64,000 nucleotides of DNA from a bacterium (GCA_963674965.2 CAXXFL010000004.1:192001-256000), one strand, 5' to 3'; counted from the stretch's first letter, positions 327-2,906 are shown. The notes: generated by a model from the letters alone, not told the origin. Translations and numbers: made by a program.

Positions 327-740
327 ATGATGGACAGGGAAGGACATATTACTCTTCTGACGCTCAGCCTGGGGGCGATAGCGTTGTCCTTTATCTTGCG
401 GGCGGGACCGGACTTCGTTTATATCCCGGCGGCCTGGGGATTGAGGGCGCCCGGCACGTGCCCGTTCCACGACCTTACCGGACTCAACTGCCCCTTTTGC
501 GGACTTACAAGAGGCTTCGTGGCCCTGGCTCACGGTGACTTGAGAAGGGCGATCGAGTTCAACGCCATGGCGCCGGCGGCGTTCATTTTCATCGCGTCGC
601 AGATTCCCTACAGGGCGCTGGCGCTTTGGAGAGGAAACGAGGGCAGGCTGGGAGCGAGGCTGCAAAAGCTGGCGCTTTACTTGATCGGCTCCGCTCTCCT
701 GATACAATGGCTTTTTTATTTGCTCGCGAGGCTTTTATAA
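327..740 (+). CDS. DUF2752-like membrane protein
   Basis: CPFHDLTGLNCPFCGLTR motif plus hydrophobic helices. Confidence 0.8.
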   Translation: MMDREGHITLLTLSLGAIALSFILRAGPDFVYIPAAWGLRAPGTCPFHDLTGLNCPFCGLTRGFVALAHGDLRRAIEFNAMAPAAFIFIASQIPYRALALWRGNEGRLGARLQKLALYLIGSALLIQWLFYLLARLL

Positions 741-828
741 AGGTTTCCACCCGCTTGAAAAAAGGAGATGGTATGAATGAAGAGTTTTGAGGTGGTAAAT
801 ACTTCAACTAGGTTAGGAATGATCTATT

Positions 829-970
829 GGAGTAGGCGGGTCGTGGGCTGGATCGTTTTCGTGAGGCTTATGACCTCGTAAAGGAGATTAGTCAGCCCCG
901 CGACTGGAGCGCCACCGTAAGGCTAGACCTTGTATAGGAGTTTGGCGGCCCCTCAAAGCGTGTCTACTCC
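829..970 (+). ncRNA. Putative IS110 bridge RNA
   Basis: Closing stem GGAGTAGGC (829-837) / GTCTACTCC (962-970) encloses two stem-loops with internal loops (840-904 and about 910-947), directly upstream of the IS110 transposase. Confidence 0.65.
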
Positions 971-1009
971 GACCTTAGATCAAATTTATTTCTAGGGAGG
1001 AGTAAGGAA

Positions 1010-2026
1010 ATGGGAAGGTACATTGGAATCGATCTGCACAGGAATTGTTTCACCTCTTGCGTCCTGGCCGAGAACGGACGGAACTATCTCAAGGACTGGC
1101 GTCTCGAGGATTTGGAGAAGTTTTGCTCGACGCTTCGCGAGTCCGACGAGATCGCGGTTGAGGTCACGGGCAACGTCCGCCTTTTTTACGACGCCGTTCG
1201 CGGCCTCGTTTCCCGCGTCGTGGTTGTCAACCCTCGCCAGTTCAAGGTCATCAGCGAGTCGGTCAACAAAACGGACGGCAACGACGCCAGACGCCTTGCC
1301 CTGTTTTTGTCCAAGGGCCTTTTGCCGGAGGTGAGGATGCCGAACAAGGAACACGCTCAGGTTAAAAGCCTCACTCAAAGCCGGGACAAGCTGGTGAAGC
1401 TTCGCACGGCCTTGAAGAACAAGATCAACAACATCTGCTCGGCCCACGGCATCAACCTGAAGAAGGAATATCTTTCCAGCGAGAAGGGCCTTGAGACGGT
1501 GCAGGAGATACCTTTCGACCCCATGGTCAAGACCGAGGTCCGCGTCCTGGTGGAGCAGATTCGGGGCTTGAACGCCGGGGTCAAGGAGCTTGAGGCCGCC
1601 ATCAAGGACTCGGGCAATCAGCTTCCCGGTCACAAGAATTTGAAGAGCATAAAGGGTATCGGGGACCTTGGCTCGGCCATACTTTTGTCGGTGATCGTTG
1701 ACGTCAAGGACTTCCCCGACGAGGGCAAGCTGGCCTCCTACTTCGGCATCGTCCCCCGGGTTAGCAACTCGAACGAGACCAGCCGCTCGGGCCGGATCAC
1801 GAAGCGGGGCAACAAACTCGGCCGCACTACCCTGGTCCAATGCGCCCTCATCGCCAAGCGTTACAGCCCTTATTTGTCGAGCTTCTACGAGCGTATCAAG
1901 GCCAGGCGCGGCGCGGGCAAGGCCATCATCGCACTGGCTCGCAAATTTTTGAAGATCATTTACATCACTTTACAGGAAAACTTGATTTGGGAGGACTTCC
2001 CGAACGGAGTAATAGCGAAAGGCTGA
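1010..2026 (+). CDS. IS110-family transposase/recombinase
   Basis: DEDD RuvC-like motifs (GIDLH, AVEVTG, KTDGND) and C-terminal SIKGIG...YFGIVPRVSNS with the expected catalytic Ser. Confidence 0.95.
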   Translation: MGRYIGIDLHRNCFTSCVLAENGRNYLKDWRLEDLEKFCSTLRESDEIAVEVTGNVRLFYDAVRGLVSRVVVVNPRQFKVISESVNKTDGNDARRLALFLSKGLLPEVRMPNKEHAQVKSLTQSRDKLVKLRTALKNKINNICSAHGINLKKEYLSSEKGLETVQEIPFDPMVKTEVRVLVEQIRGLNAGVKELEAAIKDSGNQLPGHKNLKSIKGIGDLGSAILLSVIVDVKDFPDEGKLASYFGIVPRVSNSNETSRSGRITKRGNKLGRTTLVQCALIAKRYSPYLSSFYERIKARRGAGKAIIALARKFLKIIYITLQENLIWEDFPNGVIAKG

Positions 2027-2087
2027 GTTTGTAAAATAATTCAGCTAATTTAAAAGGTTGGGTAGACAACCATCATAGGAGGAAGCG

Positions 2088-2906
2088 ATGGCGCAATGCC
2101 CCCGTTGCTCGAGTCGGATACCGGATGGTTCGGCTAAATGCCCCAATTGCGGGGCCGACCTGATAATGGCGCCGGGCGGCTACGCGGGTCCCCCTCCGGG
2201 ACCGGGCGTTCCTTCGCCGGGACAGCCTTTCCGTCCGCCCTTGGCCCCTCCTCCGCCGGGATACTACCAGGGAGCGCCGGGCGGATTCCCGCCGCCCCCG
2301 CCCGCTCCCGAGAAAACCTCGGGCGCGGCCGCGGCCTCTCTCATCCTTGCCATCCTGGGCGTATGCTCCGGAGGCATCCTGGGTATAGTGGGCATGGTGG
2401 TCGGATTTATCGCCCTGTCCTCGATCAACAAGTCGGGTGGGCGGCTGGGTGGAAAGGGACTGGCCATCGGCGGCATAGCCGTCGGGGGCGTCTCGATTTT
2501 CGTGGGCCTGTTCGTGATGGGCATCGTGGCCGCCATTTCCATACCGAGCTTCCTCAAGTACCAGGGCAAGGCCAAACAGGCCGTCGCGAGAACCGAGATA
2601 AACGATTTCCATCTCGCACAGCAAAGGTATTACCTCAGCTATAACGAGTACGCCGACAGCTTCGATACGCTGGGATGGTTTCCGCGAAACGATACTTCTT
2701 ACGCGTATTTTTTAGGACAGGACGAAATCCAGCCCATCGCGGGGGGCCCATATGACCTGCCCCGCGACGTTTATACCTGGGTTGAAAAACACGACTGGCA
2801 GATCATCGCCGTGGCCAATATTGATAGTGACCCGACCCTGGACATATGGATGATGAACAGCGACAAGGGTGAGGTCGAGTGCCTGCTCGACGACTCGGTT
2901 AATTAG
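2088..2906 (+). CDS. Zinc-ribbon / Pro-rich / DUF4190 protein with a type IV pilin-like C-terminal part
   Basis: CPRC..CPNC ribbon, Pro-rich linker, DUF4190-type TM hairpin (GKGLAIGGI), then AAISIPSFLKYQGKAKQAVARTEI resembling a pilin alpha helix. Confidence 0.7.
   Translation: MAQCPRCSSRIPDGSAKCPNCGADLIMAPGGYAGPPPGPGVPSPGQPFRPPLAPPPPGYYQGAPGGFPPPPPAPEKTSGAAAASLILAILGVCSGGILGIVGMVVGFIALSSINKSGGRLGGKGLAIGGIAVGGVSIFVGLFVMGIVAAISIPSFLKYQGKAKQAVARTEINDFHLAQQRYYLSYNEYADSFDTLGWFPRNDTSYAYFLGQDEIQPIAGGPYDLPRDVYTWVEKHDWQIIAVANIDSDPTLDIWMMNSDKGEVECLLDDSVN

What the first reader, a model, noticed from the sequence alone, without database searches (positions are those of the whole stretch)
814..1009. 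IS110 left end folds like a bridge RNA, with AGGAG in both guide-like loops
Seen: 829-837 pairs with 962-970 and encloses two hairpins. Hairpin 1 (840-904) has an internal loop ATCGTTTTC / TAAAGGAGATTAG. Hairpin 2 (about 910-947) has an unpaired TATAGGAG. Both loops carry AGGAG, matching the TAGGA(G) at the element junctions. With G:U pairs allowed, the left strand of loop 1 can pair with the right flank GGAAGCGAT (2081-2089) and also with the left-end sequence, so target and donor assignment is ambiguous. Established: IS110 recombinases such as IS621 use a bispecific bridge RNA encoded in the non-coding end. Inference: this is a complete natural bridge system whose guide geometry may differ from IS621.
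Basis: partly seen in the sequence, partly recalled or inferred. Interest (0 to 1): 0.7.

Follow-up and report, generated by a model that had tools for sequence, protein, structure and literature searches.

The report
Mirror-image bridge RNA targeting ribosome-binding sites
The left end of this jumping gene encodes a real guide ("bridge") RNA that steers it into the ribosome-binding sites of host genes, a known kind of system whose guide segments here sit in the opposite order to the textbook example.

Summary
Window 763-2081 is a 1314-bp IS110-family insertion sequence, present in 10 identical copies in this genome. A long-range helix (830-837 with 962-969) encloses two internal-loop hairpins. 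On 57 distinct left ends, 95.2% of cells pair, against 33-44% when partners are slid, and 18 of 42 pairs change on both sides.

The true junctions are AAAGGAG|ATGGTATG at 763-767 and CATCATAGGAG| at 2077-2081.

Hairpin 1 is the target-binding loop. Its 3' strand AAAGGAG (880-886) tracks target positions -6 and -7 across relatives, matching in 78/80 and 72/80 insertions (p=0.0002 each). Hairpin 2 is the donor-binding loop, and its AUAGGAG (934-940) equals the right end.

The family inserts into Shine-Dalgarno sites, co-directionally with the host gene. A start codon opening an ORF follows 2-15 nt downstream at 56 of 78 right junctions.

Relative to IS621 the guide polarity is mirrored: the 3' strands match the transposase-sense strand and the 5' strands are complementary to it. 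This puts a CT core on the antisense strand. Pairing of the 5' target guide with the right flank is weak and variable. No RNA data exist. Verdict: a genuine bridge RNA and a new variant of a known kind.

The parts
763..2081 (+). Whole IS110-family element with both junction copies of AGGAG. The unit length is 1314 bp, counting 763-2076 or 768-2081.
   Evidence: 10 copies at 100% identity share exactly this span. A contig of run X3 joins 2076 back to 763 with 5 shared letters.
763..767 (+). Left junction AGGAG: the end of the target's Shine-Dalgarno. The inferred crossover dinucleotide is AG at 766-767, which reads CT on the other strand.
   Evidence: All 10 left junctions read AGGAG|ATGGTATG, 9 of them preceded by AA. 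The core lies within the last 4 letters, from L106/L107. AG=CT is inferred by analogy with the position of the IS621 RTG.
768..778 (+). Start of the left end, ATGGTATGAAT. This is the donor flank read by the 5' strand of loop 2. It includes a -10-like TGgTATGAA (769-777).
   Evidence: Found in 76 of 81 elements. Position +4 covaries with RNA column 174. The promoter reading is by eye only; the scan tool found none.
814..829 (+). 5' stem-loop as placed by the family alignment. It is weak in this copy, where the MFE instead forms a small hairpin at 787-807.
   Evidence: In the family 5 of its 6 pairs change on both sides. MFE of the window copy.
830..837 (+). 5' strand of the closing helix (GAGUAGGC). 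It pairs with 962-969.
841..903 (+). Target-binding hairpin: basal stem 841-850 with 893-903, apical stem-loop 863-877.
   Evidence: Basal stem 98.6% paired, with 4 pairs changed on both sides.
851..862 (+). 5' target guide GAUCGUUUUCGU, complementary (with G:U) to AG plus the right flank. It is variable between relatives.
   Evidence: Pairs with 2081-2089 over 9 bp. Cognate versus non-cognate run 5.09 vs 4.32±0.16, p=0.0002. The signal is weak in the fixed-register matrix, in the replication set and within this genome.
880..886 (+). 3' target guide AAAGGAG, identical to the target on the transposase-sense strand. It is preceded by a GU linker (878-879).
   Evidence: Positions -6 and -7 match the target in 78/80 and 72/80 insertions, p=0.0002 each. 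Replicated in 11 of 13.
887..888 (+). AU at the handshake-guide position, identical to the first two letters of the left end.
   Evidence: AU is conserved in the alignment (one exception, L081). The Tardibacter relative has CU and a left end starting CT. The position corresponds to IS621 nt 81-82.
909..950 (+). Donor-binding hairpin: basal stem about 909-914 with 946-950, apical stem 919-931.
   Evidence: In the apical stem 6 of 7 pairs change on both sides. The basal stem is 83.6% paired.
915..918 (+). 5' donor guide CCGU, complementary to ATGG at 768-771.
   Evidence: Column 174 versus left-end position +4: G:C 33, A:U 21, non-Watson-Crick 3, of 57. Tardibacter has CCAGCU against AG|CTGG.
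934..940 (+). 3' donor guide AUAGGAG, identical to the last 7 letters of the right end. It is preceded by a GU linker (932-933).
   Evidence: Conserved in the family. L106/L107 have AUGGGAG and a right end reading CATGGGAG.
962..969 (+). 3' strand of the closing helix (GUCUACUC).
1010..2026 (+). IS110-family RNA-guided transposase, 338 aa.
   Evidence: Pfam PF01548 and PF02371. NCBIfam NF033542, 221.5 bits against a cut-off of 140. IS621 chain 8wt6_A, E 6.6e-13. D8, E51, D89, D92 and S254 are invariant in 30 relatives.
2063..2081 (+). Right end TAGACAACCATCATAGGAG: a -35-like TAGACA (2063-2068), the donor flank and the junction AGGAG (2077-2081), which gives the downstream gene a Shine-Dalgarno again.
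   Evidence: The right end was found in 70 of 76 elements. The promoter reading is by eye only.
2082..2090 (+). Right flank GAAGCGATG, containing the start codon (2088) of the zinc-ribbon/DUF4190 gene. It pairs with 852-860.

Best explanation
Window 763-2081 is an active IS110-family insertion sequence. Its non-coding left end (about 785-985) encodes a bridge RNA. The RNA has a 5' stem-loop, then a closing helix that encloses a target-binding hairpin (841-903) and a donor-binding hairpin (909-950).

In each hairpin the 3' strand of the internal loop follows a conserved GU linker. It carries 7 nt identical to the transposase-sense strand: AAAGGAG equals the target's Shine-Dalgarno, and AUAGGAG equals the right end. 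The 5' strand is complementary to that same DNA strand on the other side of the crossover. In the donor loop this is CCGU against ATGG of the left end. In the target loop it is a variable, U-rich 11-12 nt against the purine-rich spacer and often the ATG.

Compared with IS621 this is the same RNP architecture read on the other DNA strand. The crossover dinucleotide is AG on the sense strand, which is the canonical CT on the antisense strand. The element body is therefore inverted relative to its own recombination site.

As a result the element lands between a host gene's Shine-Dalgarno and its start codon, co-directional with that gene. Its right end supplies a new AGGAG at the original spacing. 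Host transcription can then read into the bridge RNA and transposase and on into the host gene.

Shown: the boundaries, the structure, the covariation and the target statistics. Inferred: the exact cut sites, the CT core, the junction promoter, the hitch-hiking on host transcription, and that the RNA is made at all.
For: Element and activity: 10 copies at 100% identity, including a head-to-tail pair sharing AGGAG. An RE-LE joint occurs in a contig of a second sample. The recombinase family and its catalytic residues are conserved.

Structure: 42 pairs, 95.2% of cells paired against 32.9-44.0% when slid. 18 pairs change on both sides. 0/500 shuffles reach any of the five measures. G:U pairs fix the transcribed strand.

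Target loop: the LTG-like 3' strand matches target position -6 in 78/80 insertions and -7 in 72/80, with near-diagonal contingency tables. Element-level permutation gives p=0.0002 for each. There is no match at -8 to -11. An independent metagenome set replicates this in 11/13.

Donor loop: AUAGGAG equals the right end, and AUGGGAG pairs with CATGGGAG in L106/L107. Column 174 against left-end position +4 is Watson-Crick in 54/57. A 50%-identical plasmid element has CCAGCU against AG|CTGG and a handshake CU against a left end starting CT.

5' target guide: element-level permutation gives 5.09 against 4.32±0.16, p=0.0002. Runs of 8 or more occur in 12/74 cognate pairs against 2.7% of non-cognate pairs.

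Targeting of ribosome-binding sites: a start codon opening an ORF lies 2-15 nt downstream at 56/78 right junctions. In this genome 8/9 occupied sites have an ATG 3-11 nt downstream, against 478/2039 free AAAGGAG sites.

Canonical polarity from the literature: the 5' side pairs the bottom strand and the 3' side the top strand (PMC11208160, passages). In IS621 the LTG is nt 50-58, the RTG nt 77-80, a G72-U73 linker precedes the RTG and the HSG is nt 81-82 (PMC11208158, passages).
Against: There is no expression evidence: no RNA run holds the sequence. Rfam has no match at all.

The promoter scan found no sigma-70 site at the natural RE-LE junction, so the junction promoter is a by-eye reading.

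AGGAG is invariant in the guides and in the DNA, so it cannot covary. The position of the 2-nt core rests on analogy with IS621.

Pairing of the 5' target guide is weak. The fixed-register matrix shows no clear stripe (maximum Z 2.2). Only 1 of 8 new insertions ranks in the top 5%. In this genome the occupied sites score 4.89 against 3.97 for free sites (p=0.049), and p=0.10 against free sites with an ATG. 55 free sites have runs of 8 or more.

The excess of ATG at occupied sites could come from selection against insertions inside genes, not from guidance.

The donor-loop handshake position matches right-flank position +1 only weakly (p=0.013) and +2 not at all.

The covariation at RD+4 may reflect one or a few evolutionary events.

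I could not run a canonical IS110 element through the same analysis as a positive control.
Confidence: 0.8

Rival explanations
1. The structured left end is only a leader that controls transposase expression, for example by hiding or exposing its ribosome-binding site or blocking read-through translation. On this view the AGGAG motifs are decoy or competing Shine-Dalgarno sequences, not guides.
For: The leader lies directly upstream of the transposase RBS (995-1002). In the window copy the closing helix extends to 821-826 with 975-980, near that RBS. The left end starts with ATG GTA TGA and ATG AAT ... mini-frames just after the captured Shine-Dalgarno. No expression data exist.
Against: A leader has no reason to track the flanking host DNA. 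Yet loop positions follow target -6 and -7 (replicated). They also follow the right-end variant of L106/L107 and the first letters of the left end. A regulatory role and a guide role do not exclude each other.
Confidence: 0.05
2. The polarity is canonical after all. On this view the sense-strand matches on the 3' sides are a by-product of target and donor both containing AGGAG, and the working guides are other segments or are read in another register.
For: AGGAG cannot covary. The evidence for the 5' target guide is weak. No canonical element was analysed here as a control.
Against: The letters that do vary all agree with the mirrored reading. These are -6 and -7, -5 in L106/L107, +4 and +1 of the left end, and the handshake dinucleotide. 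The GU linker, 7-nt guide and 2-nt handshake layout on the 3' side matches the position of the IS621 RTG, which pairs CT with its last two letters. No segment on the 5' sides equals the left flank or the right end.
Confidence: 0.07
3. Site choice is mainly made by the protein, or is an outcome of selection. The recombinase would recognise AGGAG-like DNA itself, or only insertions at ribosome-binding sites would survive. The RNA would be a scaffold.
For: Only 7 nt are clearly specified. 2039 AAAGGAG sites are unoccupied. Enrichment for a downstream ATG (8/9 against 23%) is what purifying selection would give.
Against: Target letters -6 and -7 change together with the RNA across relatives, which a fixed protein contact would not produce. 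In the family studied experimentally the RNA specifies both sites (PMC11208160, passages).
Confidence: 0.05

Closest known systems
IS621 bridge RNA and recombinase of E. coli (IS110 group; Durrant et al. 2024, PMC11208160; Hiraizumi et al. 2024, PMC11208158; passages read)
   Same: DEDD plus Ser recombinase. Guide RNA in the left end, upstream of and co-oriented with the gene. Order 5' stem-loop, then target loop, then donor loop. Pseudo-symmetric loops. A GU linker before the 3' guide. A 2-nt handshake position after it. A 2-nt core that reads CT in the frame of the RNP. No target duplication beyond the shared core.
   Different: The guides are read on the other DNA strand relative to the gene: the 3' strands are identical to the left flank and the right end, and the 5' strands are complementary to the right flank and the left end. 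A conserved 8-9 bp closing helix encloses both loops. The 3' target guide is 7 nt and the 5' donor guide only about 4 nt. The 5' target guide is U-rich, and its match to cognate right flanks is weak and variable; many reach 8 pairs only with G:U allowed. The target is a Shine-Dalgarno site, not a REP element. The protein match is distant: E 6.6e-13, resting mainly on the C-terminal domain.
IS900 of Mycobacterium avium subsp. paratuberculosis (IS110 family)
   Same: The target motif reported for IS900 is CATGNNNNNNTCTCCTT (PMC8141618, passage). This is the reverse complement of AAGGAGA-N6-CATG, the same kind of site between a ribosome-binding site and a start codon.
   Different: IS900 carries a complementary-strand ORF, hed, that has no RBS or start codon of its own (same paper). 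So its transposase points against the host gene; the detail that hed uses the host's RBS is partly my recollection. Here the transposase is co-directional with the host gene. No paper in the library links IS900 to a bridge RNA (0 hits). I did not compare the sequences.
IS1111-group seekRNA/bridge RNA elements (ISEc11 and others; Siddiquee et al. 2024, PMC11187229; passages read)
   Same: RNA-guided DEDD transposases with orientation-specific insertion.
   Different: In those elements the RNA lies downstream of the transposase in a long right end. Here it lies upstream in the left end, and the right end is 55 bp. A second, IS1111-like element with 4 copies exists in this genome.

Membership tests
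IS110-family bridge-RNA system (IS621 type) | [quoted passage not shown] | tested here: met
   PF01548 (E 2.5e-15) and PF02371 (E 1.6e-21). NF033542 at 221.5 bits against a cut-off of 140. D8, E51, D89, D92 and S254 are invariant in 30 relatives. S254 aligns with the Ser of the IS621 'YES' motif.
IS110-family bridge-RNA system (IS621 type) | Structured non-coding RNA in a non-coding end with two internal-loop hairpins | tested here: met
   RNAalifold gives 41 pairs, 17 with compensatory changes. The manual structure has 95.2% of cells paired and 0/500 shuffles reaching the observed values.
IS110-family bridge-RNA system (IS621 type) | First loop matches the target DNA on both sides of the core, with covariation | tested here: met
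   3' guide: 78/80 and 72/80 matches at -6 and -7, p=0.0002, and 11/13 in a second set. 5' guide: significant at element level, but weak.
IS110-family bridge-RNA system (IS621 type) | Second loop matches the joined ends of the element (the donor) | tested here: met
   AUAGGAG equals the right end, and the L106/L107 variant covaries. The 5' guide against left-end +4 is Watson-Crick in 54/57. Position +1 is compensated in the Tardibacter element.
IS110-family bridge-RNA system (IS621 type) | Short core shared by target and donor, present at both junctions, with no other duplication | tested here: met
   AGGAG is at both junctions of all 10 copies, and the tandem pair shares one AGGAG. The joint has 5 shared letters. 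That the 2-nt core is AG/CT is inferred.
IS110-family bridge-RNA system (IS621 type) | [quoted passage not shown] | tested here: not met
   Here the 3' sides equal the sense strand of the left flank and right end, and the 5' sides are complementary to the sense strand of the right flank and left end.
IS110-family bridge-RNA system (IS621 type) | The RNA is expressed and required for recombination | not testable with these tools
   No RNA run is listed. Recent activity is inferred only from the identical copies and the RE-LE junction.
IS110-family bridge-RNA system (IS621 type) | Promoter rebuilt across the RE-LE junction | tested here: inconclusive
   By eye there is TAGACA, 17 nt, then TGgTATGAA. 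The consensus scan reports 0 sites at the natural tandem junction.
IS900-like IS110 elements that target ribosome-binding sites | Insertion between a Shine-Dalgarno-like AAGGAG and the start codon | tested here: met
   The IS900 motif is from PMC8141618.
IS900-like IS110 elements that target ribosome-binding sites | Transposase oriented against the host gene | tested here: not met
   Every insertion for which both junctions could be placed is co-directional with the downstream host gene.

The most novel reading that the evidence does not exclude
A widespread clade of IS110 elements, found in Acidobacteriota, Planctomycetota and other phyla and on an alphaproteobacterial plasmid, has its recombination site inverted relative to the element body. 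The strand carrying the CT core is the one cut and transferred first in IS621 and CazIS110-1. Here that strand is the antisense strand of the bridge RNA and transposase genes.

This mirror arrangement makes the element insert co-directionally into ribosome-binding sites. Host promoters would then drive its RNA and transposase, and its right end would restore the host gene's Shine-Dalgarno. The sister solution, IS900, targets the same kind of site in the opposite orientation.

The clade also shows a 'generalist' bridge RNA: a strict 7-nt guide combined with a wobble-rich, loosely matched U-tract guide.
Probability: 0.4. Interest if true: 0.65.

Novelty: new variant of a known kind. Interest (0 to 1): 0.52.

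Why it matters
Bridge recombinases are being developed as programmable genome-writing tools. Their rules are drawn almost entirely from IS621 and close relatives.

A natural family with the same RNP but an inverted site-to-body orientation shows that gene orientation and recombination polarity are separable. If transposition runs through a single-stranded circle of the 'top' strand (CazIS110-1 preprint; half-match preprint, abstract), the mobilised strand here would be the antisense strand.

The family also illustrates a way to combine RNA guidance with abundant targets. It aims at the Shine-Dalgarno plus spacer, which occurs about 2000 times in this genome as AAAGGAG, and repairs the site it splits.

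For annotation, the family is easy to recognise. The left end starts AGGAG|ATG(G/A)NATGAAT and the right end finishes GTAGACA...CATCATAGGAG.

Tried and rejected
1. Rfam scan of 600-2300 at E up to 10: only a chance lncRNA hit.

2. Expression: no RNA holder is listed for 700-2150. The three runs found are DNA-type contig sets from one study.

3. Junction promoter: the consensus scan found 0 sites at the natural tandem junction in L006 and none inside the left end.

4. Empty site: the right flank was searched in 30 relatives (31 genomes with G000). None holds a close homologue of the locus, so no uninterrupted target could be shown.

5. Fixed-register covariation matrix between the 5' target guide and the right flank: no clear anti-diagonal.

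6. Donor-loop handshake position against right-flank +1 and +2: weak (p=0.013) and not significant (p=0.29).

7. Positive control with a canonical IS110 element:
 - The 4-copy paralogue in this genome turned out to be IS1111-like.
 - The control genomes of the family search give no loci.
 - A Bradyrhizobium plasmid element had unclear boundaries, and I dropped it.

8. I considered that the GGAGTAGAC motif repeated in the right end is a third guide or pairs with the closing helix. Elements with GGAGCAGAC in the left end keep T in the right end. I therefore read the right-end copy as a -35-like box only.

9. Literature:
 - 'bridge RNA' plus 'IS900': 0 papers.
 - 'bridge RNA' plus 'Shine-Dalgarno': 8 papers, 7 listed, none on this topic by title or abstract; one was checked.
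 - The Durrant supplements hold no 'RBS', 'Shine' or 'start codon'.
 - Green et al. 1989 is not held.
 - Figures, and the supplements of bioRxiv preprints, could not be seen. A mirrored family may be shown there, for example in Fig. S12 of the 2026 preprint.

Full report
**What is there**

Window 1010-2026 (+) encodes a 338-aa IS110-family transposase.
- Pfam finds DEDD_Tnp_IS110 and Transposase_20.
- NCBIfam NF033542, 'IS110 family RNA-guided transposase', scores 221.5 bits against a cut-off of 140.
- The only solved relatives are the IS621 and ISCro4 recombinases, at E 6.6e-13 and 1.7e-12.
- D8, E51, D89, D92 and S254 are invariant in an alignment of 30 relatives of 67-100% identity. S254 aligns with the serine of the IS621 'YES' motif.

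The window's genome holds 10 copies at 100% identity, plus a 48-bp fragment of the left end.

**Boundaries**

I lined up the 10 copies with their flanks.
- Every left junction reads flank-AGGAG|ATGGTATGAATG. Nine are preceded by AA. The tenth is the inner junction of a head-to-tail pair.
- Every right junction reads CCATCATAGGAG|flank.

In the window the element therefore runs from 763 or 768 to 2081, with a unit of 1314 bp.

A contig from a second sample of the same study joins 2076 back to 763 with 5 shared letters. The IS has about 10 times the depth of its flanks. The junction may come from the tandem pair that is also in the assembly, so it does not prove a circle.

**A large family with the same ends and the same kind of target**

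The protein has thousands of relatives (4456 at E<=1e-30 among 8000 candidates scored). A scan of species-representative genomes confirmed 420 stretches, and I examined the best 80 (61-71% identity). They are mostly Acidobacteriota. Planctomycetota, Latescibacterota, Hydrogenedentota, Nitrospiraceae, Gemmatimonadetes, Thermoleophilia and others are also represented.

- In 76 of 81 elements (80 loci plus the window) the left end starts AGGAG|ATG(G/A)NATGAAT. No motif was found in L041, L070, L077, L088 and L104.
- In 70 of those 76 the right end finishes ...GACA...CATCATAGGAG.
- At 56 of 78 right junctions a start codon lies 2-15 nt downstream and opens an ORF of at least 50 codons, or runs off the locus. 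The commonest spacers are 5-6 nt, and 48 of the 56 start codons are ATG. At least 6 of the 22 misses have under 160 nt of flank.

The family therefore inserts between a Shine-Dalgarno AAGGAG and the start codon, co-directionally with the host gene. Its own terminal AGGAG replaces the Shine-Dalgarno at the original spacing.

In the window the split pair is a DUF2752 gene (327-740) and a zinc-ribbon/DUF4190 gene that starts at 2088.

**The RNA structure**

I aligned 57 distinct left ends. RNAalifold gives 41 pairs, 17 of them with compensatory changes.

A manual structure of 42 pairs in six helices scores as follows:

| Measure | Value |
|---|---|
| Cells paired | 95.2% |
| Cells paired when 3' partners are slid by 1-3 columns | 32.9-44.0% |
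| Pairs with changes on both sides | 18 |
| Shuffles reaching any of the five measures | 0 of 500 |

The six helices are the 5' stem-loop, a closing helix, and the basal and apical stems of each of two hairpins.

It is 99.1% paired, and one pair switches U:A to C:G in 4 sequences (4 more have U:G). Frequent G:U pairs fix the transcribed strand as the transposase strand.

For the window copy alone the fold is modestly better than shuffles. For 814-1009, z is -2.07 and 8/200 shuffles fold as well. For 786-985, z is -2.90 and 1/200 do.

Rfam 15 has no matching family.

**Which loop reads what**

The two hairpins are built alike:

basal stem / 5' loop strand / apical stem ending GACCUC or GACCUU with a bulged A / G-N linker (GU in the window) / 7-nt segment / 2 nt / UGG or UAG / basal stem.

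In hairpin 1 the 7-nt segment is AAAGGAG (880-886). In hairpin 2 it is AUAGGAG (934-940). These equal the target (AAAGGAG in 9 of 9 independent sites here) and the right end (CATCATAGGAG).

*Target loop, 3' strand.* Across 80 insertions the two variable letters of the hairpin-1 segment equal the target:

| Target position | Matches | Expected identity | Element-level permutation p |
|---|---|---|---|
| -6 | 78/80 | 0.79 | 0.0002 |
| -7 | 72/80 | 0.58 | 0.0002 |
| -8 to -11 | no match beyond expectation | - | - |

The contingency tables are almost diagonal. In an independent set of metagenome contigs, -7 matches in 11 of 13. Some of those contigs share flanks and are not fully independent.

*Donor loop, 3' strand.* The two elements whose right end reads CATGGGAG carry AUGGGAG in hairpin 2.

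*Donor loop, 5' strand.* CCGU (915-918) is complementary to ATGG at the start of the left end. Its second-to-last... more precisely, its column 174 against left-end letter +4 reads G:C in 33 elements, A:U in 21 and non-Watson-Crick in 3, of 57.

*A more distant relative.* An element on a Tardibacter plasmid, 49.8% identical, sits in front of a gene starting ATGATCC. Its junctions are cgAAGGAG|CTGGCATGAAT and CATCATAGGAG|acaaccgATG. Its loops read GAAGGAG-CU and CCAGCU ... GAUAGGAG. The change of the left-end start from AT to CT is matched in two places: in the 2 nt after the target-loop guide (AU to CU) and in the donor-loop 5' strand (CCAU/CCGU to CCAG).

**The 5' strand of the target loop**

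This strand (851-862, GAUCGUUUUCGU) is the most variable part of the RNA. It is usually U-rich and often starts NAU.

Evidence that it reads the right flank:
- Some relatives pair over 10-11 bp, running into the ATG (L042, L044, L072, L093).
- With registers anchored on the junction, 46 distinct guides over 74 insertions give a mean longest run of 5.09, against 4.32±0.16 when target sets are permuted between elements (p=0.0002).
- Runs of 8 or more occur in 12 of 74 cognate pairs against 2.7% of non-cognate pairs.

Evidence that the signal is soft:
- A fixed-register matrix shows no clear stripe; the maximum Z is 2.2.
- Only 1 of 8 new insertions ranks in the top 5%.
- In this genome the 9 occupied sites score 4.89 against 3.97 for 2039 free AAAGGAG sites (p=0.049). 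Against free sites with an ATG the comparison gives p=0.10. 55 free sites have runs of 8 or more.

Occupied sites are far richer in a downstream ATG: 8/9 against 478/2039. This may reflect guidance, or survival of harmless insertions only.

**Comparison with IS621: the polarity is mirrored**

The published rules for IS621 are these.
[quoted passage not shown] It therefore equals the top strand of the left flank or right end.
- The LTG is nt 50-58 and the RTG nt 77-80. A G72-U73 linker precedes the RTG, and the handshake guide at nt 81-82 follows it.
- The last two RTG letters pair the CT core (PMC11208158, passages).

Here the segments that equal the left flank and the right end sit on the 3' sides, behind a GU linker and in front of a 2-nt handshake-like position. 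The complementary segments sit on the 5' sides.

Read in the frame of the RNP, the layout is the IS621 layout on the other DNA strand. The 3' guide AAAGGAG pairs CTCCTTT, and its last two letters pair CT. So the inferred core is the canonical CT, lying on the strand antisense to the transposase (AG at 766-767 and 2080-2081).

L106/L107 independently confine the crossover to the last four letters of AGGAG.

I conclude that the element body is inverted relative to its own recombination site. I could not run a canonical element through the same analysis as a control. The comparison therefore rests on the published description.

**Relation to IS900**

IS900 is an IS110-family element. Its reported target motif is CATGNNNNNNTCTCCTT (PMC8141618, passage). 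This is the reverse complement of a Shine-Dalgarno plus spacer plus ATG.

Its complementary-strand ORF, hed, lacks its own RBS and start codon (same passage). That fits a transposase pointing against the host gene.

Ribosome-binding-site targeting in this family is therefore not new. The present clade does it in the opposite, co-directional orientation, which is what a mirrored site predicts.

**Inferred consequences**

These are not shown.
- Host promoters would transcribe into the bridge RNA and transposase, and on into the host gene, whose Shine-Dalgarno is restored.
- The left junction regenerates a perfect AAAGGAG-AU match to the target loop. This would explain the tandem pair on contig C7.
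- A junction promoter (TAGACA, 17 nt, TGgTATGAA) is visible by eye but fails the scan's criteria.

**Novelty**

Bridge RNAs, their diversity and ribosome-binding-site targeting by IS900 are all in print.

In the library I found no paper that links bridge RNAs to Shine-Dalgarno targeting or to IS900. I found no text describing inverted guide polarity in the passages I read. Figures and preprint supplements were not visible.

Earlier notes of this scan describe what looks like the same family in another genome: an RBS-targeting element with GGAGTAGA helices (e1-4903129). They also mention IS110 RNAs 'arranged differently'. Those notes are unverified.

I file this as a genuine bridge RNA and a new variant of a known kind.

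Noticed in passing
G000:C7:6724-9358 (L006/L010): Two copies of the element lie head to tail and share one AGGAG. This fits insertion of a second copy into the left junction of the first, which regenerates the AAAGGAG-AT target.
   Followed up: partly
L011 1508-1555 (G000:C6:1074153-1074200, minus strand): A solo 48-bp fragment equals window 761-808, the left junction plus the start of the left end. It breaks off at ...TACTTCAAC. Its outer flank resembles the left flank of the C7 copy. It may be a truncated copy or a duplicated junction.
   Followed up: partly
L087, right junction (about 2243-2275 of the locus): The last 16 letters of the right end (acaaacatcataggag) occur twice in tandem before the host start codon. 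This may be a footprint of an earlier insertion or excision.
   Followed up: no
L023-L026 (G000:C2 and C6, 4 copies): A second RNA-guided element, about 1.6 kb and IS1111-like. Its left end is about 104 bp and its right end about 400 bp, with loop-like segments matching its own end. It is inserted in a repeated sequence, ...ATGGGTTACGCCGGAGG....
   Followed up: partly
window 768-790 and alignment A2 columns 6-30: Just after the captured Shine-Dalgarno, the left end opens two tiny frames that stop at once. These are ATG GTA TGA, and ATG AAT followed by a stop within 2-5 codons. They are conserved across the family. They may discharge ribosomes loaded on the host Shine-Dalgarno, or simply follow from the -10-like box.
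   Followed up: no
window 821-826 with 975-980: In the window copy the closing helix is extended by GAUCUA/UAGAUC. In relatives, CUUCC of the 5' stem-loop can instead pair with GGAAG downstream of the closing helix. This suggests two exclusive folds near the transposase ribosome-binding site.
   Followed up: no
right ends of L032, L036, L039, L044, L045, L055 and others: Many relatives have right ends of 260-355 bp, against 55 bp here. These carry conserved GC-rich stretches such as ...gcggggcgctgccccgg.cccc.gccaggggg.... They may be a passenger structured element.
   Followed up: no
window 327-740 and 2088-2906: The IS separates a DUF2752 gene from a zinc-ribbon/DUF4190/pilin-like membrane protein gene. 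Before insertion the two were only about 30 bp apart and probably formed one operon.
   Followed up: no
L066 (contig labelled Candidatus Bathyarchaeota MAG): One family member sits on a 2.8-kb contig binned as archaeal, while the family is otherwise bacterial. It may be a binning artefact or a transfer.
   Followed up: no
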